This document shows, piece after piece, positions 2,684-18,070 of a stretch of 51,657 nt of DNA. Position 1 is the stretch's first letter, and the number at the start of each line of letters is the position of its first letter. This DNA comes from a virus: IMG/VR virus record IMGVR_UViG_3300045988_164158, one strand, 5' to 3'. The notes beneath the pieces were generated by a model. That model ran no database searches and was not told where the DNA came from. It saw nothing but the letters and a program-made list of their open reading frames with translations. The position numbers were made by a program, and so were the translations under genes.

Positions 2684-3009
2684 TAATAAACGATAATTCA
2701 ATAATGCTTAACAAAATCCGGTGGGACATTAAATTTGTCTCTGAAAACAATGATGTTTTGGATGGTAACAGAGGTGTGTGTTGTTACAGAACTTCAACAA
2801 TTTATATATTAGAAAGTCTAAAACCTAGTGAAAAATTATTCACTTTATTTCACGAATTGGCTCACGCTCTTTTAGCAGAAACTGATTATAATATAGAAAT
2901 TAAAGAAAATTTAGGTAACAATTATGAAAAATTTGTTTCTTTATTAGGCGCTAGAATATATGAACTTTGTGAACAAATAGAGCTATCTCAATGCGTGAAT
3001 CAGCGGTAA
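2680..3009 (+). CDS. SprT-like/ImmA-like HExxH zinc metallopeptidase domain protein
   Basis: HELAHALL motif preceded by GNRGVCCYRTSTIYILESL, which resembles the SprT-like core. Start overlaps the helicase stop (ATGA). Confidence 0.45.
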   Translation: MIINDNSIMLNKIRWDIKFVSENNDVLDGNRGVCCYRTSTIYILESLKPSEKLFTLFHELAHALLAETDYNIEIKENLGNNYEKFVSLLGARIYELCEQIELSQCVNQR

Positions 3010-3374
3010 CATCTCATATTCGCCTCGCGGCTGCACAGCTTAATTGCCCTCTTTGGCGCAATAACTGTGGGGGATTTTATGATGATACCGGTCGTTTTGT
3101 TCGATACGGTTTAGGGTCGGAAGCTAAATTAGCTTCCAGTGATTTTATCGGTATTCGTCCGGTGCTTATAACACCTGAAATGGTTGGACAAGTTTTAGGC
3201 ATATTTACAGCCGTTGAAATGAAAGCTGAAAATTGGCATTTTAACAAAAATGACAAACACCTCTTGCAACAAAAACAGTTTATTGATATTATTAAACAAT
3301 ACGGGGGGTTAGCAGGATTTGCAACAAGTGTTGAAGATTTTTATAGGATTATAAAATATGTCGATAACAAATAG
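2991..3374 (+). CDS. VRR-NUC domain nuclease (PD-(D/E)XK superfamily)
   Basis: SDFIGIRPV...VEMKAENW...QQKQF...GGLAGFATSVEDF pattern is typical of VRR-NUC. This domain is commonly paired with SNF2/SF2 helicases in phages. Confidence 0.55.
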   Translation: MRESAVTSHIRLAAAQLNCPLWRNNCGGFYDDTGRFVRYGLGSEAKLASSDFIGIRPVLITPEMVGQVLGIFTAVEMKAENWHFNKNDKHLLQQKQFIDIIKQYGGLAGFATSVEDFYRIIKYVDNK

Positions 3375-3645
3375 TATGAAAAAACAAGGTGAACAAACAA
3401 GAGAATCCATCCTTGAAACTGGATTAAAACTTTGGCCGAATGTTACACCTACAAGTATTGCTAACACCTTAAACATTTCTCATGGAACGGTAATTTATCA
3501 TTTCCCGGATATAAAAAATGCTGTGGCGGAATATGCTGTTAAAACGGGGAACTCTCGAGTAATTGTACAATTACTTGCGATGCGACACAAAGCTGTTAAA
3601 GATATGAACGCCGTTGAACGCATAAAACATTTTACAGCCATATGA
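3358..3645 (+). CDS. short TetR-family-like HTH DNA-binding protein
   Basis: TRESILETGLKLW...TSIANTLNISHGTVIYHF resembles the TetR N-terminal HTH. The protein is only 95 aa, so it lacks a full ligand domain. Confidence 0.4.
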   Translation: MSITNSMKKQGEQTRESILETGLKLWPNVTPTSIANTLNISHGTVIYHFPDIKNAVAEYAVKTGNSRVIVQLLAMRHKAVKDMNAVERIKHFTAI

Positions 3646-4977: not shown

Positions 4978-7236
4978 ATGACAGATTTTAACCTTACAAC
5001 AGCTTATATTACCTCTCTTACCGGTAGTCCTGATACATCTTGTTTTTGGCTGCTGATAGACGAACATAATAAAAAAAACCCGCCGGTTATTATTTGCGAT
5101 TCGTTTGACAACTGTAATCAAATTTTGAAACTTTATAATGATTCTGGTTATGGTGTTTTTATAGCTATTAACTCTATTCGTTCCGGCTGTCCGAGAACAC
5201 TTGAAAATGTTGAACATGTTCGAGCACAAGTAGTTGATATTGACAACCCGTTGCAAATGCAAGACAGTTATAACAGAGCTATACAATCGGCTTGCCCACC
5301 GCATTTTGCCGTTCAAACATCGCCCGGTCACATTCATCTTTATTGGTTAATAGAACCATATGTAGGAAATGATTTTTTCAAAATTCAACAACAAAAACTT
5401 AATCAGCTTTATAATGGGGATATGAATGTTACTGACGCTACAAGAGTCATGCGCGTTCCCGGGTTTAATCATTGTAAAAGCGTACCGCAACTTGTAACAT
5501 GTTGGGGGATTCATAGCAATCCACGATATACAACGGAACAGATGCAAAATTATCTCGCGGATGTTAACATTGTTGAACATAATTTTGGGCTTCGTAAAAA
5601 ACTTGGTAACGAAATGTTACAGGCACCAAATTTTGAATTGTTGTTGAAAGCTTTGTATGATATTGACCCAAATGAACTTTTTCGAGATGAATGGTTGTCT
5701 GTTAGTGCATCGTTCAAACAAGCCGGGTGGTCGTTAACAAACGAGAATAACCTTTATACCGAATGGCTTAAATGGTGTTCAAATTATAAAAACAATAATC
5801 CAAAAGAAAACAAAACACTTTGGAACTCATTGAAAGAAACTCAAATCGGTTGGAAAAGTTTGCTCAGAAAAACTGAAAATATTCAACCTGTTGTTTATTT
5901 TGGTGAACGAGCTGAAGAAGACGAAAAAGAAATTGAAGTTTTAGGCAATGTGCTCGATGAACGCGGTAAAAAAATATGGTTTAAAAATTGTTATTTTGTC
6001 GAAAGTGAAGGGCGTATTTTTACTTCCAGTGGTCGATTTATGAATCAAATACAATTCAATGGGCGATACGGCGGCAAGGAATTTACAATTAAAAGCGCCG
6101 GAACAAAGCTTACAGACAATCCATGGAAAGCCGCTTTAAGCAGTGTTGACTGGTCCATACCAAAAGTCGACCATTGTCGTTTTTTACCTCAAGAACCTAC
6201 TTTTTCAATCATTCATGATGATTTAGGTCGCAAGGGACTAAATACATATATTCCAGCAAAGATAAAATCTATCGAAGGCGATGTTAGTAAATGGAAGGAT
6301 TATTTGTCAAAAGTATTTAATACACCAGAGGATGTTAAAATATTTGAAGATTACATTGCTCATTGTATAAAATTTCCCGGTGATAAAATTCCTTGGTCTG
6401 TTTTATTACAGTCAACCAAAGGTGTCGGTAAGCAAATGATAGGCGACGTGCTTAAACATTCAATTGGTGAAATATATACTTACCAGCCTGATGCTGAAGA
6501 ACTTGTTAGCGGTGTTAGTCAGTTTAACGGTTGGATGCGTAATAAACTTATGATATTAGTCGATGAAGTGCGTGTCGGTGACCGCAATGAACTTATGAAC
6601 GGGCTTAAAACTATCATCACTGACCGAAGAATTGCTGTAGAATCTAAAGGTGTCGATCAGCAAATGGAAGATAACGTCGCTAATTGGATATTTTTTAGCA
6701 ACTTCAAAGATGCTTTTCCAATCGACGAAAACGAGCGACGTTATTGTATATTTTACAGTAAATTACAATCAGCCTTGCAATTAGAAGAAGTTGGGATGAA
6801 TAAAAATTACTTCGATTCAATGTATAACTGGCTTGAATGTGAACATGGATTTGAAAAAATTGCATGGTATTATCTAAATTACCCGATTGAAAAAGGTTCC
6901 TTGTCGCATAGGGCACCACATACTTCAAGTTACGAAGAAGTGTTGAGAATCGGTAGAAGCCCCTTGCGTGTTATTCTTGACGATAAAATCGAAGCTGAAG
7001 AACGCGGATTTCGTGGTGGATATGTCAGTTTTGTGATGTTTCAAAAAGCCGTTTTAGACAGTTCTATGCGTACTAAACCTGCCGAGCATACATTGAAAGC
7101 TATTCTTGAAGGAAGGGGTTATCACGAGCTTGGACGGACGATAAAACCTATCCCGGGTGAAGATTTAACACATCCGAGTTTGATATTCGGTTTAAAGGGC
7201 AAAAGTATTGATGGATATGAAGATGCGCAAGGATAA
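4978..7236 (+). CDS. bifunctional primase-polymerase (PrimPol) / SF3 (D5/P4-alpha-like) helicase
   Basis: N-terminal PrimPol motifs VVDIDN, SPGHIHLYW and RVMRVPGFNHCK. C-terminal Walker A STKGVGKQ with downstream SF3 helicase architecture. Confidence 0.8.
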   Translation: MTDFNLTTAYITSLTGSPDTSCFWLLIDEHNKKNPPVIICDSFDNCNQILKLYNDSGYGVFIAINSIRSGCPRTLENVEHVRAQVVDIDNPLQMQDSYNRAIQSACPPHFAVQTSPGHIHLYWLIEPYVGNDFFKIQQQKLNQLYNGDMNVTDATRVMRVPGFNHCKSVPQLVTCWGIHSNPRYTTEQMQNYLADVNIVEHNFGLRKKLGNEMLQAPNFELLLKALYDIDPNELFRDEWLSVSASFKQAGWSLTNENNLYTEWLKWCSNYKNNNPKENKTLWNSLKETQIGWKSLLRKTENIQPVVYFGERAEEDEKEIEVLGNVLDERGKKIWFKNCYFVESEGRIFTSSGRFMNQIQFNGRYGGKEFTIKSAGTKLTDNPWKAALSSVDWSIPKVDHCRFLPQEPTFSIIHDDLGRKGLNTYIPAKIKSIEGDVSKWKDYLSKVFNTPEDVKIFEDYIAHCIKFPGDKIPWSVLLQSTKGVGKQMIGDVLKHSIGEIYTYQPDAEELVSGVSQFNGWMRNKLMILVDEVRVGDRNELMNGLKTIITDRRIAVESKGVDQQMEDNVANWIFFSNFKDAFPIDENERRYCIFYSKLQSALQLEEVGMNKNYFDSMYNWLECEHGFEKIAWYYLNYPIEKGSLSHRAPHTSSYEEVLRIGRSPLRVILDDKIEAEERGFRGGYVSFVMFQKAVLDSSMRTKPAEHTLKAILEGRGYHELGRTIKPIPGEDLTHPSLIFGLKGKSIDGYEDAQG

Positions 7237-7253
7237 AATAATATAAATAAAAA

Positions 7254-7290
7254 CCCCCTTCAGGCGGATTCGAAAGACCTAAAAAGGGGG
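7254..7290 (-). terminator. rho-independent terminator (bidirectional hairpin, T-run on minus strand) between convergent primase gene and early minus block
   Basis: CCCCCTT...AAGGGGG stem with A-run before and T-run after when read on the minus strand. Confidence 0.5.
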
Positions 7291-7353
7291 TTAAGCGCGC
7301 TTTACATTTTTATATTAACTTAAAATATTTAAAATGTCAAGAAATATATAATG

Positions 7354-7815
7354 TTAAACAGTTTTCCATCGTTTAATAGGTTTCCATTTTGTCGAACATT
7401 CTTTTCGTCCGTTATCATATCTAAAGCCTGTTTTTTCATAGATATTAACATGTTTAGGTAAAATTTTAGGCCGGTAACATTCTTTAGGTTGATAATCATT
7501 TTCGGATATTTTTTTTGCCAAAGCTATATCCTCTTCTGTTATAGATTTTATATGATATTCGATAGTTGTATGATTAAATTTAGCGACGTCCCCTGCAGCA
7601 AGTTTCGGTAACTTTTCAATTACACAACATATATAACAATAAATTCTTTTAGGTTTTGTTTGATTACTATAACGCCCTGAAAATACTAATTGAAAGTAAT
7701 TTTCAACTTTTTTTAATATTTTTTCACATTTTTTTCTTGAATATTCTTTTCTACATTTCATGGAACAATAATTTTTATCAAAAGATGTTTTCACACCACA
7801 GTTAAGACATTTCAT
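7354..7815 (-). CDS. Cys-rich protein whose C-terminal half resembles the IS1595 transposase C-terminus (HTTIE...LPKHVNIYEKTGFRYDNGR). Probably the displaced 3' part of a decayed transposase.
   Basis: Motif resemblance to the hTNtiE / fRyNnR tail of ISXO2-like transposases. The ATGA overlap with the upstream ORF suggests a former single gene. Confidence 0.4.
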   Translation of the reverse strand: MKCLNCGVKTSFDKNYCSMKCRKEYSRKKCEKILKKVENYFQLVFSGRYSNQTKPKRIYCYICCVIEKLPKLAAGDVAKFNHTTIEYHIKSITEEDIALAKKISENDYQPKECYRPKILPKHVNIYEKTGFRYDNGRKECSTKWKPIKRWKTV

Positions 7816-8507
7816 TTCCCCTCACTTTCGCCGTTTAAGGCTTTATTAATCATATACGCAAGCCCTTCATCTTTAGCAAATTTTACTGCTGGGATACATT
7901 GCTTAAGTAAATCTTTAAGCTGGTTAATCTCTTTAGTTAATGACGGAGCTTGAACATTATCAACCTGTTTGGCATTTAATTTACCTTTTCTTTCAACCAT
8001 ACCAACAACCGGTATTTTATCTTTTGTGCTACGTCCTTGAGATTGTTCTACCTTTTTACAAGAATGTCTGTTTTTATTTTTCCCACCGATATAAGTTTCA
8101 TCAATTTCAACATCGTTATCTAAATGATTATCATTTTCAATACCGAAGCACTTGCGAATCCGTTGTAACATAAACCAAGCTGTTTTCTGGGTTACATCAA
8201 TATCCTTAGCAAGTTGAACGGACGATATTCCTTTTTTATGAGATGTTATTAACCAGATGGCTAAAAACCATTTTTTAAGAGGAATTTTAGTATTGTCAAA
8301 AAGTGTACCTGTTTTTACATTGAAATATTTTCCACTATTTGCACAACGATACCGATTGTTTTTACATTTATAAACTTTTGAAGAAGAATCAAAAGGGCTT
8401 GTAACATATCCATTCCAACGTAAATCTTCCAGATGAACAATCATGTATTGTTCATCTGGAAAAGCTTGCATTAGTTCTAATATTGAATTAAAATCTCTAT
8501 TAATCAT
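7812..8507 (-). CDS. IS1595-family transposase, N-terminal part (Zn-ribbon plus start of DDE domain), truncated
   Basis: YKCKNNRYRCANSGKYFNVKTGTLFDNTKIPLKKWFLAIWLI (Zn_Tnp_IS1595-like), then VEIDETYIGGKNK...IPVVGMVERKGKL (start of the ISXO2-like DDE domain). Ends before the remaining catalytic residues. Confidence 0.55.
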   Translation of the reverse strand: MINRDFNSILELMQAFPDEQYMIVHLEDLRWNGYVTSPFDSSSKVYKCKNNRYRCANSGKYFNVKTGTLFDNTKIPLKKWFLAIWLITSHKKGISSVQLAKDIDVTQKTAWFMLQRIRKCFGIENDNHLDNDVEIDETYIGGKNKNRHSCKKVEQSQGRSTKDKIPVVGMVERKGKLNAKQVDNVQAPSLTKEINQLKDLLKQCIPAVKFAKDEGLAYMINKALNGESEGK

Positions 8508-8554
8508 AGTGTAGATCCCTTTTGTTTGTAGTAATAATGCCGTTTAATTTTGTC

Positions 8555-8815
8555 TCATGAGTTGTCATTTTTTACCTCAAAAATACGTTTAACATCAGTG
8601 ACCGAGTAACCAACAAAGCAATACCGGTCAATTATTTCATCAAAATACTTTTCGCTAGTATAACCTTTTTCAATGAGTATTTTCACAAATCGTTTATCAA
8701 CGCCTCTAATTTTCTCATCGTAAATATCAAGCACAACAGATTGACGCTTTGACGTTGGATTAAAAATAATCATTCCGGGCGTTGGCAATAAACCGATTTC
8801 AGTTAGTGTTTTCAT
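8555..8815 (-). CDS. hypothetical protein
   Basis: ORF with a strong GAGGGG Shine-Dalgarno before the ATG at 8815. Confidence 0.35.
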   Translation of the reverse strand: MKTLTEIGLLPTPGMIIFNPTSKRQSVVLDIYDEKIRGVDKRFVKILIEKGYTSEKYFDEIIDRYCFVGYSVTDVKRIFEVKNDNS

Positions 8816-9230
8816 CCCCCAACCCCTCAAAATTCCAAAAACTAATATTGTCCTCGCATTCGTCTTTAAGTCCCCAAACCGGGAAATGACACCAAGTATT
8901 ATCTTTCAACATAATGGCAATAAATTCGTCATCATTACGAGGACGCGCTAATACCCTTGACGACGGACACCAGCCTATAATATCTTTTCGTATAAATTCC
9001 TTGTTAGTATCCAAGTCAAAGAAATTTTCACAATATCCCGCATTCCAATTTTCAAAGATAAACCGGTTGGCCGGAAGTTTCGGAATTGGTTTATTTTTCG
9101 GCGCTTTATTTGTTTTCATCGTTACCACTTCTCCGTTTTTAAGCTCACACAATAGGCACGCGCCTCTTTGTAAGACCGGGCAAAATTTGTCGCAGCCATG
9201 AGCCATCCCGTATTTATAACACTCGTTCAT
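8799..9230 (-). CDS. Cys-rich hypothetical protein
   Basis: ORF in the coupled minus-strand early block with many Cys/His (CDKFCPVLQRGACLLCE). Confidence 0.4.
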   Translation of the reverse strand: MNECYKYGMAHGCDKFCPVLQRGACLLCELKNGEVVTMKTNKAPKNKPIPKLPANRFIFENWNAGYCENFFDLDTNKEFIRKDIIGWCPSSRVLARPRNDDEFIAIMLKDNTWCHFPVWGLKDECEDNISFWNFEGLGDENTN

Positions 9231-9516
9231 CTGTCACCTCTTCAAAAACATTTCTTAAACCTTGGCAGCGTTGACCGTTGTTCCAATAATCCCGATAAGG
9301 GTCTTTAATAAATTTGCTGTCTTTCTTGGCTAAAACCGAATAATCAGGCGTTCCAATGTCCATATTGATACAATTAGTGTCCAGCTGTTCAAGCAGCTTA
9401 ACAAAATCTTTCTGCCACTCAACCGGCATTGATTGCAATATTGAGCGCGGCAACACCAAATATTTAGCATAACTTAAGCCAAACCAAGCATGAATTGGTG
9501 CATTTTCGTTATTCAT
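9214..9516 (-). CDS. hypothetical protein
   Basis: ORF. The ATG at 9516 overlaps the stop of the upstream small gene (ATGAATAA) with a GAGG Shine-Dalgarno. Confidence 0.4.
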   Translation of the reverse strand: MNNENAPIHAWFGLSYAKYLVLPRSILQSMPVEWQKDFVKLLEQLDTNCINMDIGTPDYSVLAKKDSKFIKDPYRDYWNNGQRCQGLRNVFEEVTDERVL

Positions 9517-9649
9517 CGACAACCTCCGCACAAACAAAAGTTTGGTCTGTGAAAAATTTTCTAAAAAGCTGATGTTCAGTAATAATTAAAATTGATATTA
9601 CTATTCCAGCAGCAATCCCAATGCAAAACCATGAAAATTTATCAATCAT
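9509..9649 (-). CDS. small membrane protein (46 aa), not in the ORF track
   Basis: GGAGG Shine-Dalgarno 6 nt upstream of the ATG at 9649. Hydrophobic core FSWFCIGIAAGIVISILII. Translationally coupled on both sides. Confidence 0.45.
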   Translation of the reverse strand: MIDKFSWFCIGIAAGIVISILIITEHQLFRKFFTDQTFVCAEVVDE

Positions 9650-9845
9650 CTAATTCCTCCCCGGCCTTTTTAATCGACTTAACAACCCCCTTGACAACGC
9701 TTGAAGTTCCTAAAGTTACGATTGATAGCATACCGTCTGTTTCGTCCTTCCGGTCGTCTGACAAGCTTGATAAATCTTTGCCAAGCTCACCTAAACACCT
9801 GATTGGTGTTGAAGCTAAAGTTACTAAACTCTTAAATATACTCAT
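9642..9845 (-). CDS. hypothetical protein
   Basis: ORF starting MSIFKSLV with a GGAG Shine-Dalgarno. ATGA overlap with the upstream DUF2829 gene. Confidence 0.35.
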   Translation of the reverse strand: MSIFKSLVTLASTPIRCLGELGKDLSSLSDDRKDETDGMLSIVTLGTSSVVKGVVKSIKKAGEELDD

Positions 9846-10033
9846 TCCACAATCTCCCAATCATCAGCCAAAAGATATTCATCTTTAATACCATAAATTG
9901 GCAATAAGTTCATTCCGTCGTTAACAAAAAATCTTTTAGTCCATGGTTCAAGCTCAAATGTGTTCGGGCTTAAAGATAGACAACGAACTTTCTTACCTTC
10001 TCGCATAGCTTTCAAAGCGTCTTCAAATTTCAT
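9842..10033 (-). CDS. DUF2829-family protein (Tad2-like, candidate anti-Thoeris sponge), copy 1
   Basis: MKFEDALKAMREGKKVRCL... ending LLADDWEIVE. This matches the remembered DUF2829 hallmark: N-terminal MxFxeAlxalKxGkkVaR and C-terminal LAEDWEvv. Confidence 0.5.
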   Translation of the reverse strand: MKFEDALKAMREGKKVRCLSLSPNTFELEPWTKRFFVNDGMNLLPIYGIKDEYLLADDWEIVE

Positions 10034-10034
10034 T

Positions 10035-10286
10035 TTACACTCTCCATGCAATATCTTTTATTATATCGTCGAGAAAATCTCTCTTACGGCAAAGCCTGTC
10101 GACATACTCTCCAAAACTTTCCCAATCGGAAACACATTTAGTCATCTCATTAGGAATAAATTCATTTCCTAATTGTGTTTTATATTTACCGTCAGAATCT
10201 AAATAAATAAAACAACGGGAACCCCATATTTTACGTCTAACTTTTTTCCCTTGTTTTAACAATTTTTCAGCACCCTTAAATTTCAT
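10035..10286 (-). CDS. DUF2829-family protein (Tad2-like), copy 2
   Basis: MKFKGAEKLLKQGKKVRRKIWGS...CVSDWES shares the N-terminal DUF2829 signature with the neighbouring gene. A GAGG Shine-Dalgarno precedes it. Confidence 0.45.
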   Translation of the reverse strand: MKFKGAEKLLKQGKKVRRKIWGSRCFIYLDSDGKYKTQLGNEFIPNEMTKCVSDWESFGEYVDRLCRKRDFLDDIIKDIAWRV

Positions 10287-10291
10287 CTCAA

Positions 10292-10456
10292 TTACCTCAT
10301 TATAAAATAAACAATACCTGAACAAGCCCACATTATAAGCAGAATTACGGTTACAATAGCCGTCTCAATCCCTGCAAAATTTCCCTCATCCTGATTTGCG
10401 ACATAGACAAACGAAACTATGCTAAATATGCCTAATATCCAAAAGTAATAACTCAT
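10292..10456 (-). CDS. small membrane protein (54 aa), not in the ORF track
   Basis: AAGGAG Shine-Dalgarno 8 nt before the ATG at 10456. Two hydrophobic segments. Confidence 0.45.
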   Translation of the reverse strand: MSYYFWILGIFSIVSFVYVANQDEGNFAGIETAIVTVILLIMWACSGIVYFIMR

Positions 10457-10468
10457 TACTTAAACTCC

Positions 10469-10639
10469 TTACATAAAACCTAGATATAAAAGAAAGACCA
10501 TCTCAATTAATGCTTCTAAAAATCCAAAACATTCAATTCTTTCTGCTAAAGTTCTCTTAATTGTCCAGCATGTTCCAGTAACTACATACCAAATATTTGC
10601 TAAAATAAAAAAACAAAGCGCAAGTAACAGTGTAATCAT
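10469..10639 (-). CDS. small membrane protein (56 aa), not in the ORF track
   Basis: GAGGAGG Shine-Dalgarno. The ATG overlaps the stop of the 10636..10950 gene (ATGA). Hydrophobic core LLLALCFFILANIWYVV. Confidence 0.45.
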   Translation of the reverse strand: MITLLLALCFFILANIWYVVTGTCWTIKRTLAERIECFGFLEALIEMVFLLYLGFM

Positions 10640-10950
10640 TCCTCCTCACTTTCGTCGTTTAAAGCTTTTCTTGCGTGCTGTATTGCTTCATCGGCGGTTT
10701 TACAAAATCCGCAAGCTATGTAGTTCAAATCATTAAAAAGTTCCATATTTCTGCCCTTAAGCCGGTCAATCTCTGCTTGCTGTTCTTCTATCTTTAATTT
10801 TCTGTTATAAGAAAGCTTAAACATTTCATTAGCTCTTTTACTTTTTTCTAAAATAATTTCATTCTTACTTTTTATCAGGATTTCAAGACTTTTTATAATT
10901 TCTTTCTGTTCATCACATAAGATTTCACACATCAAATATTTCATTCCCAT
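10636..10950 (-). CDS. coiled-coil hypothetical protein
   Basis: ORF containing KIEEQQAEIDRLK, paralogous to the motif in the next gene. Confidence 0.4.
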   Translation of the reverse strand: MGMKYLMCEILCDEQKEIIKSLEILIKSKNEIILEKSKRANEMFKLSYNRKLKIEEQQAEIDRLKGRNMELFNDLNYIACGFCKTADEAIQHARKALNDESEEE

Positions 10951-11132
10951 CCTGCAATCTCCAAAAGTTTACTCTCATCTTCTGTTTTGAAAAACAAATC
11001 AACGGCTTGTTTCGCAAATTCGATTCTTTGTTTTAGTTGTTTAATTTCGAATTGCTGTTCTTCTATCTTTTCTTTTAAATTTTTAATCTTTGAACAAGCA
11101 TATAAGTTTGTGCAATTCCTTCTACTCATCAT
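10941..11132 (-). CDS. coiled-coil hypothetical protein (paralogous motif KIEEQQFEIKQLK)
   Basis: ORF with a motif shared with the 10636..10950 gene. Confidence 0.35.
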   Translation of the reverse strand: MMSRRNCTNLYACSKIKNLKEKIEEQQFEIKQLKQRIEFAKQAVDLFFKTEDESKLLEIAGWE

Positions 11133-11551
11133 TCCACCTCGAACAAATCATCAATATTTGCTTTGCTTTTCCCAAGATATTTAAACTTATTTGACATAGG
11201 GCTTTTTGCATCTATCAACCTTATGTTTTTAGTTTCTTTGCTGTAAGCAACAAAATCATTGCTTGTGGGGTTAAAGTCTAGAATAATGAATTTTATGTTA
11301 CTTTCCTCTTTCAACCACACATCCCTAATCTCTGGTTTTTCTTTACTCATTTTGTTAACTCCCAACAAATTAACGATAATATTCTTCATTTGTTCATATG
11401 AACGGTTTGCGGCAATAAACTCGCCACCATCTTTTGTAATTTTTCCGCTCTTATAAAAAACAAAATCCTCGATTACAAAAGCATTTTTTACCATAGCAAA
11501 ATGTTCGCATTCAAAATTTTTGGCAAAATTTAAAAGTTCCTCCCAAATCAT
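11129..11551 (-). CDS. hypothetical protein sharing a C-terminal KFKYLGKSKANIDDLFE motif with the 12861..13091 gene
   Basis: ORF. Paralogous C-terminal tail. Confidence 0.4.
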   Translation of the reverse strand: MIWEELLNFAKNFECEHFAMVKNAFVIEDFVFYKSGKITKDGGEFIAANRSYEQMKNIIVNLLGVNKMSKEKPEIRDVWLKEESNIKFIILDFNPTSNDFVAYSKETKNIRLIDAKSPMSNKFKYLGKSKANIDDLFEVE

Positions 11552-11667
11552 TGCTTAAGCCTCTCAATATCAAAATACCAAATATTCCAACCGGCAAAAA
11601 CTATTGCCGGAATCCCGATAATCAAGCCGATTGTCCATAATACCCAAACTGGAATAGAAAAAATCAT
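11548..11667 (-). CDS. small membrane protein (39 aa), not in the ORF track
   Basis: MIFSIPVWVLWTIGLIIGIPAIVFAGW. Its stop overlaps the ATG of the downstream gene (ATGA). Confidence 0.35.
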   Translation of the reverse strand: MIFSIPVWVLWTIGLIIGIPAIVFAGWNIWYFDIERLKQ

Positions 11668-11682
11668 CTTACACCTACTTTC

Positions 11683-11820
11683 TTACCCTAAATTTCTTTT
11701 TGCCCTTCCACACTTATTGCATATTTTGCAAAACTTACTATCTAGCCTCATCAAATCCGCGCAGCGCGAGCACCAGCGCACGTTGCAAAAACCTAGCCAA
11801 CAAAGCAACCGTCTAATCAT
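11683..11820 (-). CDS. small zinc-ribbon protein (45 aa), not in the ORF track
   Basis: GGGAGG Shine-Dalgarno before the ATG at 11820. Paired CxxC motifs (CSRC ... CKICNKC). Confidence 0.4.
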   Translation of the reverse strand: MIRRLLCWLGFCNVRWCSRCADLMRLDSKFCKICNKCGRAKRNLG

Positions 11821-12014
11821 CTTAAAGTCCTCCCAAACAAATACGCAGCAAAAAAGAACATGACGGTAGTAAGGATGTCTGACAGGTTTTCTCCAATTTC
11901 AATCATTGTTTTTTTCCTTTTGCATTTGTTCCGTTTCCGCGATAATCAGCATCGGGTAATTTTTATGCAGACAATTAAAAATTTTACTCAATGCCTACTT
12001 CTGGCGAATGTTTT

Positions 12015-12437
12015 TCAGTCATTCTCTTTTTCCTCTTCTTCCCATTGTTTCATAATTTTCAATGAATCCCCTATTAAGAACTGTTTTTCAAACACCTCAT
12101 CAAAAGGTAAATCTGTCCAACCATAATAAGCGAAAATATCTTTAACTCGTTGTCTACACTCCATCATGTTGTCCTCTAAGAGCTCTATACACCAAAGGCT
12201 TCTTAACGCTATTTCGGCTTTTGCTCGGTCATTTTTGCATCGGTTTAGCTTACGTCTATATATTTCAACAACAAAATTGCCAGTACCACAGGTTGGCTCG
12301 AGAAAAGTTTTACCAACGTCAGAAAAAGCATCTGATTCTTTTTCTAATTCGTCAAGCATTTCATTTACAACCCAGATAGGCGTAAACACTTCACCGAAAT
12401 CCTTAACCCTTTGTTTTGATTTTATTAATTTAGCCAT
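12015..12437 (-). CDS. orphan N-terminal fragment of a gamma-class N6-adenine DNA methyltransferase (motif X/I only, no NPPY/NPPF)
   Basis: FGEVFTPIWVVNEMLDEL and FLEPTCGTGNFVVE match the Eco57I/TaqI/PglX-type SAM-binding N-terminus. The protein ends after 140 aa without a catalytic motif IV. Confidence 0.45.
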   Translation of the reverse strand: MAKLIKSKQRVKDFGEVFTPIWVVNEMLDELEKESDAFSDVGKTFLEPTCGTGNFVVEIYRRKLNRCKNDRAKAEIALRSLWCIELLEDNMMECRQRVKDIFAYYGWTDLPFDEVFEKQFLIGDSLKIMKQWEEEEKEND

Positions 12438-12864
12438 AGATTAAATCCCATTTATTACCAAACAACGAAACTTTTTTAGAGTGTCCATTTCTATATCTTT
12501 GGATAGCTCTTCTGTATTGTTGATATGTTTCACACAGCTCACGAAAGGATTTGCCATTATAAAAATGAATGGCTCTTGCTCTACCTTTATTGATAGGGGT
12601 TAAACTTTCATCTACTGTTTTGTTATAGTTTTTAATTCTCCAGAGACAAGCTCTATATTCAGAAATAGTATTACATTTCTTAATTAAAGGGACACCATCT
12701 GAACACAATAAATAACTCTTATTCATTTTAGGTGTGGTCATAGCTTGTTCAATAGACATCTTTTTGTTTTTTATTCTTTTTACAACTGTGTCATAATTAA
12801 GGTTATGTTCTTTACAGTATTTTCTTAAGGTCGTTCCTTTATAGAGATATTTTAATTTCATCAT
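12430..12864 (-). CDS. DNA-binding protein with two NUMOD/HTH-like repeats
   Basis: Two repeats, KGTTLRKYCKEHNLNYDTVVKRIKN and NGKSFRELCETYQQYRRAIQRYRNGHS, resemble homing-endonuclease-associated HTH modules. Confidence 0.35.
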   Translation of the reverse strand: MMKLKYLYKGTTLRKYCKEHNLNYDTVVKRIKNKKMSIEQAMTTPKMNKSYLLCSDGVPLIKKCNTISEYRACLWRIKNYNKTVDESLTPINKGRARAIHFYNGKSFRELCETYQQYRRAIQRYRNGHSKKVSLFGNKWDLIYG

Positions 12865-13091
12865 TCCCCCGTTTCAAATAAATCTTTAATACTGGCTTTG
12901 CTCTTGCCGAGGTATTTAAACATTTTAATAAAATGTCTTTCTCTGGCGGAATCTTCAAATATTGTGTTATTGCTATTATCGATAAAAACTATTGCTCTTG
13001 TACCGTCTGATAATGTAAATATACGGCTAATATGCACCGGACCTTTTGAGTCTTCCCACACATCGCCGATTTCTGGTTTTAATGCACTCAT
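12861..13091 (-). CDS. hypothetical protein (C-terminal FKYLGKSKASIKDLFE paralog)
   Basis: ORF. Tail motif shared with the 11129..11551 gene. Confidence 0.4.
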   Translation of the reverse strand: MSALKPEIGDVWEDSKGPVHISRIFTLSDGTRAIVFIDNSNNTIFEDSARERHFIKMFKYLGKSKASIKDLFETGE

Positions 13092-13252
13092 TTTGTTAGC
13101 TCCTTAATCTCAACATCATACCAACCCTCATCTTCGGCTTCAGCTTGTGCTTGCCAAGCCTCGAGGTATGTTTCGGCTTTAGCATAAATAGCAAGTTCCA
13201 TTTCATCGCAATACCTGCCAACAATTTTATATTTTTTTTCATCCAAAGTCAT
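13088..13252 (-). CDS. small acidic protein (54 aa), not in the ORF track
   Basis: GAGGTG Shine-Dalgarno. ATGA overlaps with both neighbours. Confidence 0.35.
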   Translation of the reverse strand: MTLDEKKYKIVGRYCDEMELAIYAKAETYLEAWQAQAEAEDEGWYDVEIKELTK

Positions 13253-13776
13253 TTCAGCACCTCTTTTATTCTGGTTAAAAGCAAAGTCGCTTCATCTGCG
13301 TTTTTAGTGAAATATGTATCACCGTCTGATAAATATTCTTTGCACTCTTTCAGCAACTGGCGGAGCTGTTTGTTTTTCTCCGTGGCTGCCTTTCCCTCAT
13401 TAAGCAGCTTTCCAATTATCATGTCCCCTTTGTCGACTTCTCTTTTAAGTCGTATAATCTCTTGATAAACTGCCTCATAATCCCCGAACTCATCAACCAA
13501 GGCTTGACCGTGCGCTATGTCTACCGCCTGCTTACTTTCCAACAATTTGTAGTTATTGGTTAGATTTTCGACATCTTTTTCAAGTCCTTTGACCTTTTCG
13601 GTAAGTTCAACAAAATGGTCGAAATCGCACGGTGCTAAAACTTCCGTAACCTTAAGTGCATAATCGTCAAAATCATCATCAAAACAAAGTGCGGGAAACA
13701 CGGCGTCATTTTCATAAAGACAGAAATACCACCCATTTTTAAGTTTTCCATCTTTCCAGTCATCCGTTAAGCTCAT
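13249..13776 (-). CDS. coiled-coil hypothetical protein
   Basis: ORF. The ATG at 13776 has a GAGGAG Shine-Dalgarno. The track start at 13791 is a TTG. Confidence 0.4.
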   Translation of the reverse strand: MSLTDDWKDGKLKNGWYFCLYENDAVFPALCFDDDFDDYALKVTEVLAPCDFDHFVELTEKVKGLEKDVENLTNNYKLLESKQAVDIAHGQALVDEFGDYEAVYQEIIRLKREVDKGDMIIGKLLNEGKAATEKNKQLRQLLKECKEYLSDGDTYFTKNADEATLLLTRIKEVLK

Positions 13777-14065
13777 CGCCCATCTCCTCAATTTTCATTT
13801 CAGAAAAGACTTCCGGCTCTATGTCGCTAATTCCACCCATCGTTTCCATATACTCTTCTTTTTTTTCGGCACACATTTCATTTAAGTACACCCACTTTTT
13901 ACACCAATTTTGTAAATGTGTTTTTCTTGGATATGCTTTAGATGAGGAAAATCCAAAATAATAAACATATCCCTTAAAATAAAAACCGATATGATTTTGG
14001 TCGCCTAAAATATAGCCATTAACTTTCGGCGCATCCGTATTGTCGTGAATTTTCATTTTTTTCAT
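13760..14065 (-). CDS. hypothetical protein
   Basis: ORF in the coupled block. Confidence 0.35.
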   Translation of the reverse strand: MKKMKIHDNTDAPKVNGYILGDQNHIGFYFKGYVYYFGFSSSKAYPRKTHLQNWCKKWVYLNEMCAEKKEEYMETMGGISDIEPEVFSEMKIEEMGDELNG

Positions 14066-14090
14066 CCTAAAATAGTTAAAGAGTTAAAAA

Positions 14091-14456
14091 TTACAAAGCT
14101 AGCACCGGGCGAACGTAGTAACCGTAGTCCTTATAGTCCCAGCCCAAACCGCAACTGCTGGAAAAGGTAGAGAGCCACGCGTAGCCGTAATAGTACTCCG
14201 ACGAAGACCAATACCAGTCTCTTTTAAGCGGCTCCCCGCCGGCGCGAATTAACGCTTTGTTTACAGCGTCTAAATTTTCAGCAATCGCCATCCATTCTTC
14301 CTTGCTCGGAATGCCTACTTTGACGGCGTCATACCAATTCATTTGTTTTTGCTCGTCGCGCAATCCCAGCACAATCGCCCGGCCGTTTATTTGGGCGGCG
14401 CGGACGCCGATTGGGCGTCCGTTCTTTTTAACAATCATAACTCTGAATTTTTTCAT
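14091..14456 (-). CDS. DUF1566 (Lcl C-terminal-like) domain protein, paralog A
   Basis: ...DWYWSSSEY..AW..F..G....YVRPV fits the DUF1566 signature. Locally GC-rich DNA. Shares near-identical DNA stretches with the 16006..16371 gene. Confidence 0.45.
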   Translation of the reverse strand: MKKFRVMIVKKNGRPIGVRAAQINGRAIVLGLRDEQKQMNWYDAVKVGIPSKEEWMAIAENLDAVNKALIRAGGEPLKRDWYWSSSEYYYGYAWLSTFSSSCGLGWDYKDYGYYVRPVLAL

Positions 14457-14474
14457 GTTGACCTCATTTGTATT

Positions 14475-14705
14475 CTATTTTATTAAATTTTCCAAAATTA
14501 TTTTCATTTGCTCCGGGGTACGATTAACCGCTATACAGGGAATTACAAGATTACCGTCAATATCGTAAGTATCTACATGCAGATAAATATCCCCTGTATC
14601 AAAAAATTCTAAATCATTTGCGATAATACAATAATTGTCATATATTTCTACACCATCAATTTCTTTGGCCCATTCAACCAACTCAAACCATGTGATAGTA
14701 GGCAT
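14475..14705 (-). CDS. hypothetical protein
   Basis: ORF. Confidence 0.35.
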   Translation of the reverse strand: MPTITWFELVEWAKEIDGVEIYDNYCIIANDLEFFDTGDIYLHVDTYDIDGNLVIPCIAVNRTPEQMKIILENLIK

Positions 14706-14738
14706 AAAACTAAATTATCATTATAGTCCGGCGTGTTG

Positions 14739-15224
14739 TTACTCATCTTTCAATCCTTTCAATTTATCAGACCAGTGTTTTATTAGTTTTAAGTCTTCTT
14801 CTCGCTGCTTGCTACTATAATACATGTCATTTTCGCATTCGTGCATATACTCTTGATTTACAGCCCACTGAAAACCGTTTAATACATCCTCCAAACTTTC
14901 GACTATCGCGCCGCCGGCAGTTTTATAATGCGGTTTCCCTTTAAGAATATTTGTAATTATAACAGGACTCACGCCTAAAAATTTTGCAGCATCGGAAGCG
15001 GTTTTAAAAACCTCTGTTTTACCGTTCTGCAAGTGTAATAGTACCCCGTTTGTCTGTGTAATAGTACTTGCGTCAACAAGTAAAGGTAGTAAACCAGCTT
15101 TAAAAGTTTCATGCGTTGTAAGTGTGATAGTATCACCAAGAGAAAGTTTAATACATTTCAAATTTTTAGTTACCATTCGAGTTTTAAACCCGTTCGCGTG
15201 CGTAATGGTACAGCTGTAAAACAT
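14739..15224 (-). CDS. NUMOD1-like DNA-binding protein (no nuclease domain evident)
   Basis: KTEVFKTASDAAKFLGVSPVIITNILKGKPHYKTAGG matches the NUMOD1 pattern. Start at the MFYSC ATG, with an AAAGGA Shine-Dalgarno 9 nt upstream. Confidence 0.4.
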   Translation of the reverse strand: MFYSCTITHANGFKTRMVTKNLKCIKLSLGDTITLTTHETFKAGLLPLLVDASTITQTNGVLLHLQNGKTEVFKTASDAAKFLGVSPVIITNILKGKPHYKTAGGAIVESLEDVLNGFQWAVNQEYMHECENDMYYSSKQREEDLKLIKHWSDKLKGLKDE

Positions 15225-15238
15225 TTTACACATCCTTT

Positions 15239-15814
15239 TTATTTGTGAAGTTTAACCGTAAAGCCGAAACTTTCAGCTTCCAATAAGTTTTTTGTTGTAA
15301 ATAAAATATTGCCGAAATCGTCTAAAACATCCCAGTCAGTTGTTTTAATATCCCCCGGTTTTAAATTTAAAGGCTGTAATAATGCCGCCTTTTTTTTATC
15401 ACGACTTTCTAATAAAATAGCGTTGTCAGCTCTTGACGGAATTAAAAGCCGTGAATCATTCCCGATAAAATTTAAAGCAATTTTAAAATAACTTTCCTTA
15501 ATTAAAAAATTGTCAATCTGTGCGAGGCCGGCTGTATATTTTATTCTATCAAGCTGCCAAAGTCGCCGAACGTCTTCTTTTGCCAAATTATATACAATTT
15601 TCCAATCGGCGAGAGGTTTTAAGTCGGTCGGAGCAGGCACGGGCATTTGAAGACGCCAGCAAAGCGAAAGTTGACCGCCGCCGCTGTCATCAATAAGCAT
15701 AATCATCCCGTCAGACGCTATATATTTCCCGTCTGTATCTTGATAAACATATTGTAGCGCCGGCCTGTCCATTAAACGACTTGTCACTTTGTCAAGCTCG
15801 CACGAGTAAAACAT
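15239..15814 (-). CDS. hypothetical protein (N-terminus MFYSC paralogous to the 14739..15224 gene)
   Basis: ORF. The internal ATG at 15814 has an AAAGGA Shine-Dalgarno, and its leader is similar to that of the neighbouring gene. Confidence 0.4.
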   Translation of the reverse strand: MFYSCELDKVTSRLMDRPALQYVYQDTDGKYIASDGMIMLIDDSGGGQLSLCWRLQMPVPAPTDLKPLADWKIVYNLAKEDVRRLWQLDRIKYTAGLAQIDNFLIKESYFKIALNFIGNDSRLLIPSRADNAILLESRDKKKAALLQPLNLKPGDIKTTDWDVLDDFGNILFTTKNLLEAESFGFTVKLHK

Positions 15815-15816
15815 TT

Positions 15817-15981
15817 TTAATAATCCTTTAAAATTGTTAAACATTCCGTCTTTGACAAATCTTTTAAACAAATAAAATATTCTGTTTCAGCCTCATAATA
15901 AGCATTTTGCCGATGAAAGCCGCTATTTGCGGCGATAAGAATCGCCGCAAATATTAAAACCGTTGTAAAATATTTAAACAT
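15817..15981 (-). CDS. small secreted/membrane protein (54 aa) with N-terminal hydrophobic signal-like segment, not in the ORF track
   Basis: AAGGA Shine-Dalgarno. MFKYFTTVLIFAAILIAANSG... Confidence 0.35.
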   Translation of the reverse strand: MFKYFTTVLIFAAILIAANSGFHRQNAYYEAETEYFICLKDLSKTECLTILKDY

Positions 15982-16005
15982 TTTGGTTATTTCCTTACGT
16001 AACCA

Positions 16006-16371
16006 TTAAAAATTTACAATTACGCGGACATTATGTCTAAACGGTTTTTCATCAAAATTTAAACCGGATATTCTGTTAAAATCATAATAAAGCGCGTAAT
16101 CGTGCCTGGCTTCCGACGCCGACCAATAACAGTCTCTTTTAAGCGGCTCCCCGCCTGCCTGCTCGCATGCGTCATTGATAGCGTCAAAATTTTCACTAAT
16201 CGCAAACCATTCTTCAATTGACGGGATTGCTTGATATGAAGCGCTAAACCAATTCATCCGCTCCGGCTCATCTTGAAGCGCAAGGGTAATTATCCGGCCG
16301 TTTATTTGGGCGGCACGGACGCCTACCGGTTTGCCGTTTCTTTTAACAATTTCAACTTTAAATTTTGTCAT
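16006..16371 (-). CDS. DUF1566-like domain protein, paralog B
   Basis: ...CYWSASEARHDYALYYDF...VRVIV. DNA stretches (CCGGCCGTTTATTTGGGCGGC.CGGACGCC and TCTCTTTTAAGCGGCTCCCCGCC) are nearly identical to paralog A. Start at MTKFKV with an AAGGGG Shine-Dalgarno. Confidence 0.45.
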   Translation of the reverse strand: MTKFKVEIVKRNGKPVGVRAAQINGRIITLALQDEPERMNWFSASYQAIPSIEEWFAISENFDAINDACEQAGGEPLKRDCYWSASEARHDYALYYDFNRISGLNFDEKPFRHNVRVIVNF

Positions 16372-16375
16372 CTCA

Positions 16376-16567
16376 TTACCCCTTAAAATTAATTTCAGCA
16401 CCGTCGACACAATCAACAGCTTCGCGCAGATATCCCGGCAAACCGTCAACCATGTCGCAAACCCATTGATTGTTATATCCGTAAATTTGGAAACTTATTG
16501 AATCTTTCCCGGAATTTATGGCTTTTTCAACCATACTTTTAAAATCACTTGAATCAATTTTTTTCAT
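16376..16567 (-). CDS. hypothetical protein, first gene downstream of early promoter copy 1
   Basis: ORF. The ATG at 16567 is preceded by the conserved leader and an AAAAGGA Shine-Dalgarno. Confidence 0.45.
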   Translation of the reverse strand: MKKIDSSDFKSMVEKAINSGKDSISFQIYGYNNQWVCDMVDGLPGYLREAVDCVDGAEINFKG

Positions 16568-16627
16568 GTTCGAATCCTTTTCTTGTGTTTATACTTAATA
16601 TATAACATAAATTATTAAAATTGTCAA
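16568..16627 (-). promoter_or_regulatory. early sigma70-type promoter copy 1 (TTGACA-17-TATATA) plus conserved 5' leader
   Basis: On the minus strand: TTGACA (plus 16622-16627), a 17-nt spacer, then TATATA (16599-16604). The leader TAAGTATAAACACAAGAAAAGGATTCGAAC is near-identical to the copy at 17895-17955. Confidence 0.6.
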
Positions 16628-16648
16628 TAGGCTTTTTAATGATTTATG

Positions 16649-16951
16649 TTAAAAACTCCACGGTCCTTTGATGATTTTACTGTTGCCCGTGCCGGGTTTG
16701 TACCAGACAAAACCCCCACCCGCCGCGCCTTGTCTCCATTTTGTGCAGCTTAATTGATTGTCAATAAATATTTTACCATCCGGCCGCAATTCTACAACAT
16801 CAGCGTCCCAAAAATTTTTTATTTTGTCAGCCAAGTCTTGCAGCGTCGACGCCGTGTCATTTACTTCTTCGCGCTGTAATTCAATTTCATAAGCTGTTTT
16901 TAGCTCCGTGATGTCTCGATTCGTAAGTTTTGCACGATTTAAAATTTGCAT
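16649..16951 (-). CDS. hypothetical protein
   Basis: ORF. Confidence 0.4.
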   Translation of the reverse strand: MQILNRAKLTNRDITELKTAYEIELQREEVNDTASTLQDLADKIKNFWDADVVELRPDGKIFIDNQLSCTKWRQGAAGGGFVWYKPGTGNSKIIKGPWSF

Positions 16952-16955
16952 GGCG

Positions 16956-17087: not shown

Positions 17088-17112
17088 TTTTGAATCCTCC
17101 ATAAATTATTAA

Positions 17113-17568: not shown

Positions 17569-17591
17569 TGTTTTTAACCTCCAAATATGTT

Positions 17592-18056: not shown

Positions 18057-18070
18057 AATTTGCTTTGCAT

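What the first reader, a model, noticed from the sequence alone, without database searches (positions are those of the whole stretch)
9842..10286. Tandem pair of DUF2829 (Tad2-like) genes in the early block, candidate anti-Thoeris sponges
Both adjacent small genes start MKFxxAxKxxxxGKKVR. The first ends LLADDWEIVE, matching the DUF2829 hallmark as remembered. DUF2829 is the family of Tad2, which sequesters the gcADPR signals of the Thoeris defence system. Two diverged paralogs side by side (one 63 aa, one 83 aa with a different C-terminus) suggest diversification against different signal molecules or host variants. They lie in a run of tiny early genes typical of anti-defence islands.
Basis: partly seen in the sequence, partly recalled or inferred. 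Interest (0 to 1): 0.65.

Follow-up and report, generated by a model that had tools for sequence, protein, structure and literature searches.

The report
Paired minimal Tad2-fold phage genes
Two neighbouring small phage genes do encode proteins with the fold of the Tad2 immune-signal sponge, but both are stripped-down versions that lack the residues known Tad2 proteins use to bind the Thoeris signal, so an anti-Thoeris role is possible but unproven.

Summary
Two adjacent minus-strand genes, B (10035-10286, 83 aa) and A (9842-10033, 63 aa), both start MKFxxAxKxxxxGKKVR, and A ends LLADDWEIVE.

Both belong to the DUF2829/Tad2-like domain family:
- Pfam PF11195 scores are 30.8 bits for B and 24.7 bits for A (cutoff 25).
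- Profile-profile probability against canonical Tad2 is 97-98%.
- AlphaFold2 models have pLDDT 94.5 and 92.5, and their top 21-22 PDB matches are all Tad2 structures.

The anti-Thoeris reading is only partly supported:
- Both proteins are about 58-63-aa minimal cores. They lack the beta2-beta3 insertion whose helix alpha2 forms the dimer interface of the Tad2 tetramer.
- The gcADPR-contact residues W25, N26, W73, S76 and D79 are 98-100% conserved in 104 canonical Tad2 sequences. They read L, S, Y, K, Y in A and W, G, F, N, T in B.
- B also carries an extra 25-residue C-terminal helix.

A Trp-type gene followed by an A-type gene recurs in three independent lineages. Related proteins fuse two to six such mini-domains in one chain. 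The 1.6-kb module moves between unrelated phages, with breakpoints inside the genes.

Most likely these are accessory binding proteins with a non-canonical pocket and an unknown ligand.

The parts
10035..10286 (-). Gene B, 83 aa. It is a Trp-type minimal DUF2829/Tad2-fold core (residues 1-58, with RRKIWG and SDWESF motifs) followed by a 25-residue amphipathic C-terminal helix (58-82).
   Evidence: - PF11195 scores 30.8 bits, above the cutoff of 25, but covers only profile positions 1-40.
- hhalign against canonical Tad2 gives probability 98.1%, E 1.2e-13, over the full core.
- The AF2 model has pLDDT 92.5.
- The top 22 Foldseek PDB hits are all Tad2 family.
- dN/dS is 0.24 against L032.
9842..10033 (-). 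Gene A, 63 aa. It is an 'A-type' minimal DUF2829/Tad2-fold protein with VRCLSLS in place of the RxGWNG motif, and it ends LLADDWEIVE.
   Evidence: - PF11195 scores 24.7 bits, E 3.5e-5, over the full profile, 0.3 bits below the cutoff.
- hhalign against canonical Tad2 gives probability 97.4%.
- The AF2 model has pLDDT 94.5.
- The top 21 Foldseek PDB hits are all Tad2 family, with TM 0.74-0.84.
- dN/dS is about 0.1.
10034..10046 (-). The B-A junction. B's TAA stop, one spacer base and A's ATG, with GGAGAG (10040-10045) serving as A's ribosome-binding site inside the end of B. This suggests translational coupling.
   Evidence: The sequence was read directly. The same 1-nt spacing is found in L002 (genes at 3001-3252 and 3254-3445) and in L032 (2501-2752 and 2754-2951).
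9642..9845 (-). Downstream 67-aa gene (MSIFKSLV...) whose ATG overlaps A's stop codon (ATGA). It belongs to the same mobile module and has no family match.
   Evidence: It travels with A in L002, L027 and L029.
8814..10397 (-). The 1.58-kb mosaic module containing B, A and the downstream small genes. It is shared at 96.9% identity with an otherwise unrelated phage contig (L002).
   Evidence: blastn of the loci against the window shows:
- L003 shares only 10147-10363, so its breakpoint lies inside B.
- L029 shares only 9494-10015, so its breakpoint lies inside A.
- The sibling phage L027 lacks 9944-11992.

Best explanation
Genes B and A encode two deeply diverged paralogs of the Tad2-like (DUF2829) domain in its minimal form. 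The fold is helix alpha1, a five-stranded antiparallel sheet and short helix alpha3. It lacks the beta2-beta3 insertion found in all characterised Tad2 sponges. B adds a C-terminal amphipathic helix.

The two genes sit in one operon, are probably translationally coupled, and belong to a small accessory module that recombines between unrelated phages.

Shown:
- fold and family membership;
- loss of the insertion;
- replacement of the canonical gcADPR-contact residues;
- purifying selection on both genes;
- recurrence of the ordered pair (Trp-type gene, then A-type gene);
- existence of single-chain proteins with 2-6 mini-domains;
- mobility of the module.

Inferred:
- The proteins act as accessory, probably counter-defence, binding proteins.
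- They work as dimers across the alpha1 / beta1-beta2-loop face. In Tad2, the pocket is built entirely from core elements of two protomers.
- The dimer may be an A-B heterodimer.
- The pocket has a different chemistry from canonical Tad2, so the ligand is probably not 3'cADPR bound in the canonical way. It could be another immune nucleotide or an unknown signal.
For: Family and fold:
- Pfam PF11195 hits both proteins.
- hhalign probabilities are 97.4% and 98.1% against a 104-sequence canonical Tad2 alignment, and 98.9% between the A and B families.
- AF2 pLDDT is 94.5 and 92.5.
- The Foldseek PDB top hits are exclusively Tad2 structures, including 8smf, 8wje, 8v3e, 9eib, 8wjd and 8kbi.

Pocket geometry. 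In SPO1 Tad2 the pocket is formed by the beta1-beta2 loop, the beta3-beta4 loop, strand beta4, the beta4-alpha3 loop and helix alpha3 of two protomers. All of these elements are retained in the models.

The pair as a unit:
- B then A, with identical 1-nt spacing, occurs in L002 and in the more diverged L032, where B is 75% identical and the A-type partner is strongly diverged (dN 0.67).
- A different Trp-type 64-aa gene overlaps the start of an A-type gene in L004, L005 and L006.
- 19 of 48 relatives of B are 113-135-aa proteins with two mini-domains. Others carry 3-6.
- Lactobacillus phage Bacchae has four consecutive genes that each begin with this mini-domain.

Accessory and mobile nature.

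Selection.

Functional breadth of the family. Tad2 homologs inhibit Thoeris types I, II and IV, CBASS and Pycsar, using more than one pocket (PMC12393519).
Against: - No oligomer model, ligand docking or experiment was possible here.
- The residues that define the known pocket are not conserved.
- The alpha2 dimer interface is missing, so the quaternary structure may differ entirely.
- A-type genes also occur without a DUF2829 neighbour within 2.5 kb, in L007/L008, L009 and L023. Heteromerisation is therefore not obligatory.
- The fused two-domain proteins examined (for example P0037, P0039, P0044) pair two Trp-type domains, not a Trp-type with an A-type domain.
- Nothing ties the unknown host to Thoeris or any other signalling defence system.
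Confidence: 0.45

Rival explanations
1. Canonical reading. Both proteins are anti-Thoeris sponges that sequester 1''-3' gcADPR (3'cADPR) or His-ADPR in the same pocket as SPO1 or Myroides Tad2. The two paralogs are tuned to different Thoeris signals.
For: - Both proteins belong to the same Pfam family and fold.
- Four of five diverse Tad2 homologs tested inhibited Thoeris.
- The family is functionally plastic.
- B keeps the W25 equivalent, and both keep an aromatic residue at the W73 position.
Against: - N26 and D79 are 100% and 98% conserved in canonical Tad2. They are S and Y in A, and G and T in B.
- A also loses W25, which becomes L.
- The HgmTad2 mutants W21A/N22A and S90A/T92A/D93A lose gcADPR binding, and only about 1% of Tad2 proteins were judged to lack the site.
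- The insertion with alpha2, needed for the V-dimer and hence the tetramer, is absent.
- phmmer finds no Tad2 structure for A, and only E 0.04 N-terminal matches for B.
Confidence: 0.12
2. These are Tad2-fold proteins with a non-sponge job. The mini-domain would be a generic small binding module that inhibits or redirects a host or phage protein, with B's C-terminal helix as the effector or oligomerisation element. It would not sequester a small molecule.
For: - The known ligand residues are lost.
- The mini-domain is fused to many unrelated C-terminal parts: coiled-coil-like helices, a tail with a HAD_PNKP hit in P0032, and 60-aa domains in Lactobacillus phage proteins.
- It occurs as 3-6 repeats in 335-943-aa proteins.
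- The best-conserved surfaces are helix alpha1 and the C-terminal strand rather than the loop residues.
Against: - No partner or alternative activity is known for any DUF2829 protein.
- The only reported alternative, anti-CRISPR AcrIIA7, could not be reproduced.
- Multi-copy, interface-forming architecture is also what sponges use (PMC12265669).
Confidence: 0.3
3. These are decaying or selfish filler: remnants of Tad2 genes that have lost function and persist only because the module is mobile.
For: - Sibling contigs carry truncated or chimeric versions: P0002, P0010, P0023, P0032 and P0033. L027 lacks B and the N-terminal half of A.
- The B copies in the window and in L002 differ by 5 nonsynonymous and 0 synonymous changes.
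Against: - dN/dS is about 0.1 for A and 0.24 for B over larger divergence.
- The reading frames are intact, with ribosome-binding sites.
- The models are confident and compact.
- The pair is conserved in order and spacing across diverged lineages.
Confidence: 0.05

Closest known systems
SPO1 Tad2 (gp34.65; PDB 8SME/8SMF/8SMG, 8WJE), the founding gcADPR sponge against type I Thoeris
   Same: - Same domain family (PF11195).
- Same core fold: alpha1, a five-stranded sheet and alpha3. Foldseek TM is 0.74-0.84 for A and 0.51-0.60 for B.
- Same N-terminal F-x-x-A-x-x-x-x-x-x-G-x-x-V-x-R motif and C-terminal L-A-x-D-W-x-I-V motif.
- Both are small phage accessory genes.
   Different: - SPO1 Tad2 is 89 aa, with a 24-residue beta2-beta3 insertion (residues 36-59) that carries alpha2, the dimer interface of the tetramer. 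A and B lack it.
- The contact residues W25, N26, W73, S76, T78 and D79 read L, S, Y, K, E, Y in A and W, G, F, N, M, T in B.
- B has an extra C-terminal helix.
HgmTad2/AcrIIA7 and SptTad2 (PDB 8KBI-8KBM, 8WJC, 8WJD), and Myroides odoratus Tad2 (8V3E, 9EIB)
   Same: Same domain. All appear among the top structural hits. They show that the family can evolve new ligands, including cGG, cGAMP, His-ADPR and cUMP, and second pockets.
   Different: - These proteins are 88-104 aa.
- In HgmTad2 and SptTad2 the second (cyclic dinucleotide) pocket is built from an enlarged insertion (35-41 residues). A and B have none.
- All retain the GWNG and W-x-x-S-x-[TS]-D motifs.
Uncharacterised minimal DUF2829 proteins of cultured phages. 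These include the 60-66-aa proteins of Shigella phage KPS64, Klebsiella phages KpS110 and KP8 and Pectobacterium phage CBB, and the multi-paralog sets in Lactobacillus phages Bacchae, Semele and Iacchus.
   Same: - Same minimal core without the insertion, with rmsd 0.9-2 A over about 58-62 residues for B's core.
- They occur as arrays of paralogs. Bacchae has four consecutive genes.
- None has been functionally tested.
   Different: - Sequence identity is only 14-34%.
- The Lactobacillus phage proteins carry a different C-terminal domain of about 60 aa.
- The ordered pairing of a Trp-type gene with an A-type (no Trp) gene seen here was not examined in those phages.

Membership tests
Pfam PF11195 (DUF2829 / Tad2-like domain) | HMM score at or above the gathering threshold of 25 bits | tested here: inconclusive
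   B scores 30.8 bits and passes, but only profile positions 1-40 of 73 align. A scores 24.7 bits, 0.3 below the cutoff, with E 3.5e-5 over the full-length profile 1-73. Close relatives of A (P0018, P0019, P0026, P0028) carry precomputed PF11195 hits.
Pfam PF11195 (DUF2829 / Tad2-like domain) | Profile-level homology to canonical Tad2 over the whole domain | tested here: met
   hhalign gives 98.1% probability (E 1.2e-13) for B-core residues 1-59 against SPO1 residues 5-89. The A family gives 97.4% in local mode over residues 1-20, and 97.3% in global mode over 1-63.
Pfam PF11195 (DUF2829 / Tad2-like domain) | Tad2 core fold: alpha1, antiparallel beta1-beta5, alpha3 | tested here: met
   AF2 pLDDT is 94.5 and 92.5, and the secondary-structure order matches. 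The top 21-22 Foldseek PDB hits are all Tad2 family at probability 0.98-1.00. The next hit has probability 0.44 or less.
Functional Tad2 sponge (gcADPR / His-ADPR sequestration) | Pocket residues W25, N26, W73, S76 and D79 (SPO1 numbering), in the GWNG and W-x-P-S-x-T-D motifs | tested here: not met
   These residues are 98-100% conserved in 104 canonical sequences. A has L, S, Y, K, Y and B has W, G, F, N, T. Mutating the equivalent residues abolishes binding in HgmTad2.
Functional Tad2 sponge (gcADPR / His-ADPR sequestration) | beta2-beta3 insertion with helix alpha2, forming the V-shaped dimer of the homotetramer | tested here: not met
   The insertion is absent from both models and from the alignments. 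The cores are 58-63 aa, against 84 aa or more for all 120 listed canonical homologs.
Functional Tad2 sponge (gcADPR / His-ADPR sequestration) | Homotetramer with ligand pockets at protomer interfaces | not testable with these tools
Functional Tad2 sponge (gcADPR / His-ADPR sequestration) | Binds the signal and rescues phage from Thoeris | not testable with these tools
   This requires experiments.
Sequestin (PF21825) fusion partner, considered for B's C-terminal extension | PF21825 HMM match in the C-terminal part | tested here: not met
   No PF21825 hit was found for B at E <= 10. None was found in seven related or neighbouring proteins with C-terminal extensions at E <= 0.1. B's helix is only 25 residues, whereas Sequestin is 60-80 aa.

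The most novel reading that the evidence does not exclude
The ordered pair (Trp-type B plus Trp-less A) forms an obligate heterodimeric mini-sponge. Its single, asymmetric interfacial pocket would bind an immune signal other than the known gcADPR isomers. This would be a new quaternary solution for the Tad2 fold, of which the fused two-domain proteins are the single-chain version, and a possible handle on an undiscovered signalling defence system.
Probability: 0.15. Interest if true: 0.7.

Novelty: new variant of a known kind. Interest (0 to 1): 0.38.

Why it matters

The minimal, insertion-less DUF2829 domains form a sizeable subgroup that, as far as I found, has not been tested. They occur as gene pairs, as arrays and as multi-domain chains. 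They have lost the canonical pocket signature yet remain under purifying selection.

If they are sponges, they define a new architecture and probably new ligands. If they are not, domain-based annotation as 'Thoeris anti-defense 2-like' over-calls anti-Thoeris function for this subgroup. That matters for anti-defence catalogues built from Pfam hits.

Tried and rejected
- **Megablast to cultured phages.** Window 8000-12000 gave no match. tblastn of A and B gave only E 0.2-0.9 hits, so no close cultured relative exists.
- **phmmer of A against PDB sequences.** No Tad2 hit was found. Single-sequence search is too weak for this protein, and profile and fold methods were needed.
- **NCBIfam.** Nothing relevant was found.
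- **Promoter and terminator scan of 7000-18500.** It found no more promoter-like or terminator-like sites than the shuffled controls, so 'early' transcription could not be supported.
- **Sequestin or another known sponge domain in B's tail.** Rejected.
- **A 'conserved ends, hypervariable middle' cassette pattern in A-type proteins.** I did not pursue this. The loci were retrieved through the N- and C-terminal peptide patterns, so that conservation is an ascertainment artefact.
- **Positive selection on B.** The window and L002 copies differ by 5 nonsynonymous and 0 synonymous changes. That is too few differences to be significant, and the more distant comparison gives dN/dS 0.24.
- **Host assignment.** The only lead is a 30-kb contig binned into a 'Bacilli bacterium' gut MAG. 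I treated this as a weak hint.
- **Other copies in the window.** No other DUF2829-like ORF exists in the window.

Full report
**Observation**

The interval 9842-10286 holds two adjacent minus-strand ORFs.
- Gene B is 10035-10286, 83 aa.
- Gene A is 9842-10033, 63 aa.
- Both start MKFxxAxKxxxxGKKVR, and A ends LLADDWEIVE.
- B is upstream. Its TAA stop is one base from A's ATG. A's ribosome-binding site (GGAGAG) lies inside the end of B.
- A's stop overlaps the start of the next 67-aa gene (ATGA).
- BLASTP aligns only the first 17 residues of A and B, at 59% identity.

The window is a phage genome. It encodes a large terminase, portal, major head protein, tail protein J, DNA polymerase A, primase, helicase and exonuclease. 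The two genes lie in a minus-strand block of about 35 small genes between about 7350 and 17940.

**Family and fold**

- Pfam PF11195 (Tad2-like) matches B at 30.8 bits, above the cutoff of 25, but over profile positions 1-40 only. It matches A at 24.7 bits (E 3.5e-5) over the whole profile.
- I built a canonical Tad2 alignment from SPO1 Tad2 (sequence) plus 103 homologs of 80-105 aa. These were drawn from more than 7,700 hits.
- hhalign against it gives 98.1% probability (E 1.2e-13) for the B-core family over the full domain, and 97.4% for the A family. The A and B families match each other at 98.9% (E 3.5e-17).
- The AlphaFold2 models are confident, with pLDDT 94.5 for A and 92.5 for B.
- Foldseek against the PDB returns only Tad2-family structures as the top 21 hits for A and top 22 for B. 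These are SPO1 Tad2, Myroides Tad2, HgmTad2/AcrIIA7 and SptTad2. TM-scores are 0.74-0.84 for A and 0.51-0.60 for B. The next hit has probability 0.44 or less.
- B's lower TM-score reflects an extra C-terminal helix (residues 58-82). Its core ends with its own DWE hallmark (SDWESF, 53-58).

**What differs from known Tad2 sponges**

Tad2 is a homotetramer.
- Helix alpha2, which lies within the beta2-beta3 insertion, and strand beta2 form V-shaped dimers.
- Two such dimers interlock along alpha1.
- Each gcADPR pocket lies between two non-dimeric protomers.

The ligand contacts in SPO1 Tad2 are W25, N26, W73 and D79, with T78, S76 and other residues contributing. In HgmTad2, the mutants W21A/N22A and S90A/T92A/D93A lose binding. 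Only about 1% of Tad2 proteins were judged to lack the site. In my canonical set, W25, N26, G27 and W73 are 100% conserved, S76 is 99% and D79 is 98%.

| SPO1 residue | W25 | N26 | W73 | S76 | T78 | D79 |
|---|---|---|---|---|---|---|
| A | L | S | Y | K | E | Y |
| B | W | G | F | N | M | T |

Both proteins also lack the insertion (SPO1 residues 36-59). Their cores are 58-63 residues, against at least 84 for all 120 listed canonical homologs. In HgmTad2 that insertion forms the second, cyclic-dinucleotide pocket. That site is also unavailable here.

All the core elements that line the gcADPR pocket are retained. These are the beta1-beta2 loop, the beta3-beta4 loop, strand beta4, the beta4-alpha3 loop and helix alpha3. 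A dimer across the alpha1 face could therefore still form one pocket, though with different chemistry. This last step is inference.

**The minimal subgroup and the pairing**

An exhaustive profile search with the B family found 48 representatives at E <= 1e-3.
- 19 are proteins of 113-135 aa with two mini-domains in one chain. Pfam confirms two stretches in P0037.
- Three have 3-6 repeats in 335-943 aa.
- Others are a mini-core plus a C-terminal helical extension, like B.

The ordered pair recurs in context.
- L002 carries the same B-then-A pair.
- L032 carries a diverged pair. B is 75% identical and the A-type partner is strongly diverged (dN 0.67 against A), yet the 1-nt spacing is the same.
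- L004, L005 and L006 carry an A-type gene (71% identical) whose start overlaps a different 64-aa Trp-type DUF2829 gene.
- L007/L008, L009 and L023 carry the A-type gene without such a neighbour.

Multi-copy sets also occur elsewhere.
- L002 has four copies within 1.8 kb, L018 has three and L017 has two.
- A MAG contig has two copies 3.9 kb apart.
- The cultured Lactobacillus phage Bacchae has four consecutive genes that each begin with the mini-domain.
- BFVD also shows 60-66-aa DUF2829 proteins in cultured Shigella, Klebsiella and Pectobacterium phages.

The architecture is therefore widespread and already annotated at domain level. As far as I could find, it is untested.

**Mobility and selection**

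blastn of the related loci against the window shows a mosaic pattern.
- L002 shares only a 1.58-kb module (8814-10397, 96.9% identity).
- L003 shares 217 nt and ends inside B. Its product, P0032, is B's first 47 residues fused to an unrelated tail that hits the HAD_PNKP family (PF25109).
- L029 shares 9494-10015 (99.6%), with its breakpoint inside A.
- The sibling phage L027 has 95-99% identical flanks but lacks 9944-11992.
- P0033 fuses the upstream membrane ORF (10469-10639) to B's C-terminal helix.

This behaviour is typical of accessory, frequently exchanged genes. Both genes are nevertheless under purifying selection. dN/dS is 0.09-0.12 for A and 0.24 for B.

**Interpretation**

The specific claim that these are gcADPR or His-ADPR sponges against Thoeris fails two defining features that could be tested here: the pocket residues and the insertion-dependent tetramer interface. 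It could not be tested for binding or phenotype.

The Tad2 family is known to have evolved other ligands and second pockets, covering Thoeris types I, II and IV, CBASS and Pycsar. About a quarter of the sponge homologs tested in that study had no known target (PMC12393519). The most likely reading is therefore an accessory, probably counter-defence, binding module with a non-canonical pocket. It may act as a two-subunit unit. My confidence in this is about 0.45.

The rivals are:
- a non-sponge protein-binding role (0.30);
- the canonical anti-Thoeris role (0.12);
- decay (0.05).

The finding is a divergent variant of a known kind and of moderate interest.

Noticed in passing
window 17592-17936 (-): The first gene of the minus-strand small-gene block has a weak, sub-threshold match to the S-adenosylmethionine lyase family (PF23780, E 4.9e-4, 20.5 bits against a cutoff of 28). 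It may be a T3-like anti-restriction SAM lyase at the head of the block.
   Followed up: no
window 7812-8507 (-): A 231-aa protein with an ISXO2/IS1595-like transposase DDE domain fragment (PF12762, E 6e-12) lies inside the phage genome. The same gene is present in the sibling contig L027.
   Followed up: no
window 14091-14456 (-) and 16006-16449 (-): Two paralogous genes share KNG(R/K)P(I/V)GVRAAQINGR...GGEPLKRD(W/C)YWS(S/A)SE. The first has a weak hit to the Lcl C-terminal domain (PF07603, DUF1566-like). In L009 a gene with an on-record PF07603 hit sits directly after the A-like gene.
   Followed up: no
window 11129-11551 (-) and 12861-13091 (-); L007:2688-2900: A second small paralog family occurs in the same block. 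The proteins contain KPE(I/A)(G/R)DVW and end with YLGKSKA(N/S)(I/V)x(D/E)LF(E/D)(V/T)(E/G). In L007 a member lies immediately downstream of the A-like gene.
   Followed up: no
window 10469-10639 (-) and B C-terminus 10035-10145 (-); protein P0033: A metagenomic variant fuses the N-terminal 46 residues of the small membrane ORF upstream of B to B's C-terminal helix. The junction is at a shared 'EM' dipeptide, which indicates a deletion between short repeats.
   Followed up: partly
window 10035-10286 (-) against L002:3001-3252: All five differences between these two B copies are nonsynonymous (K14E, I20M, V52G, F58L, K68E). The adjacent A gene has one synonymous change and no nonsynonymous change. 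There are too few changes to test for selection.
   Followed up: partly
L031 (Lactobacillus phage Bacchae NC_047924) 5968-8033: Four consecutive genes annotated as 'hypothetical protein' (gp141, gp140, gp139 and the adjacent YP_009798178.1) each start with a minimal DUF2829 domain followed by a different C-terminal part of about 60 aa. Semele and Iacchus have similar multi-paralog sets.
   Followed up: partly
proteins P0036 (943 aa), P0045 (474 aa), P0050 (335 aa): Large proteins contain 3-6 repeats of the minimal DUF2829 domain in one chain. Their sequences and genomic contexts were not examined.
   Followed up: no
window 12015-12437 (-): A 140-aa ORF resembles only the N-terminal SAM-binding part of N6 DNA methyltransferases (PF02384, E 0.0065; motif EPTCGTGNF). 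It may be a truncated methylase.
   Followed up: no
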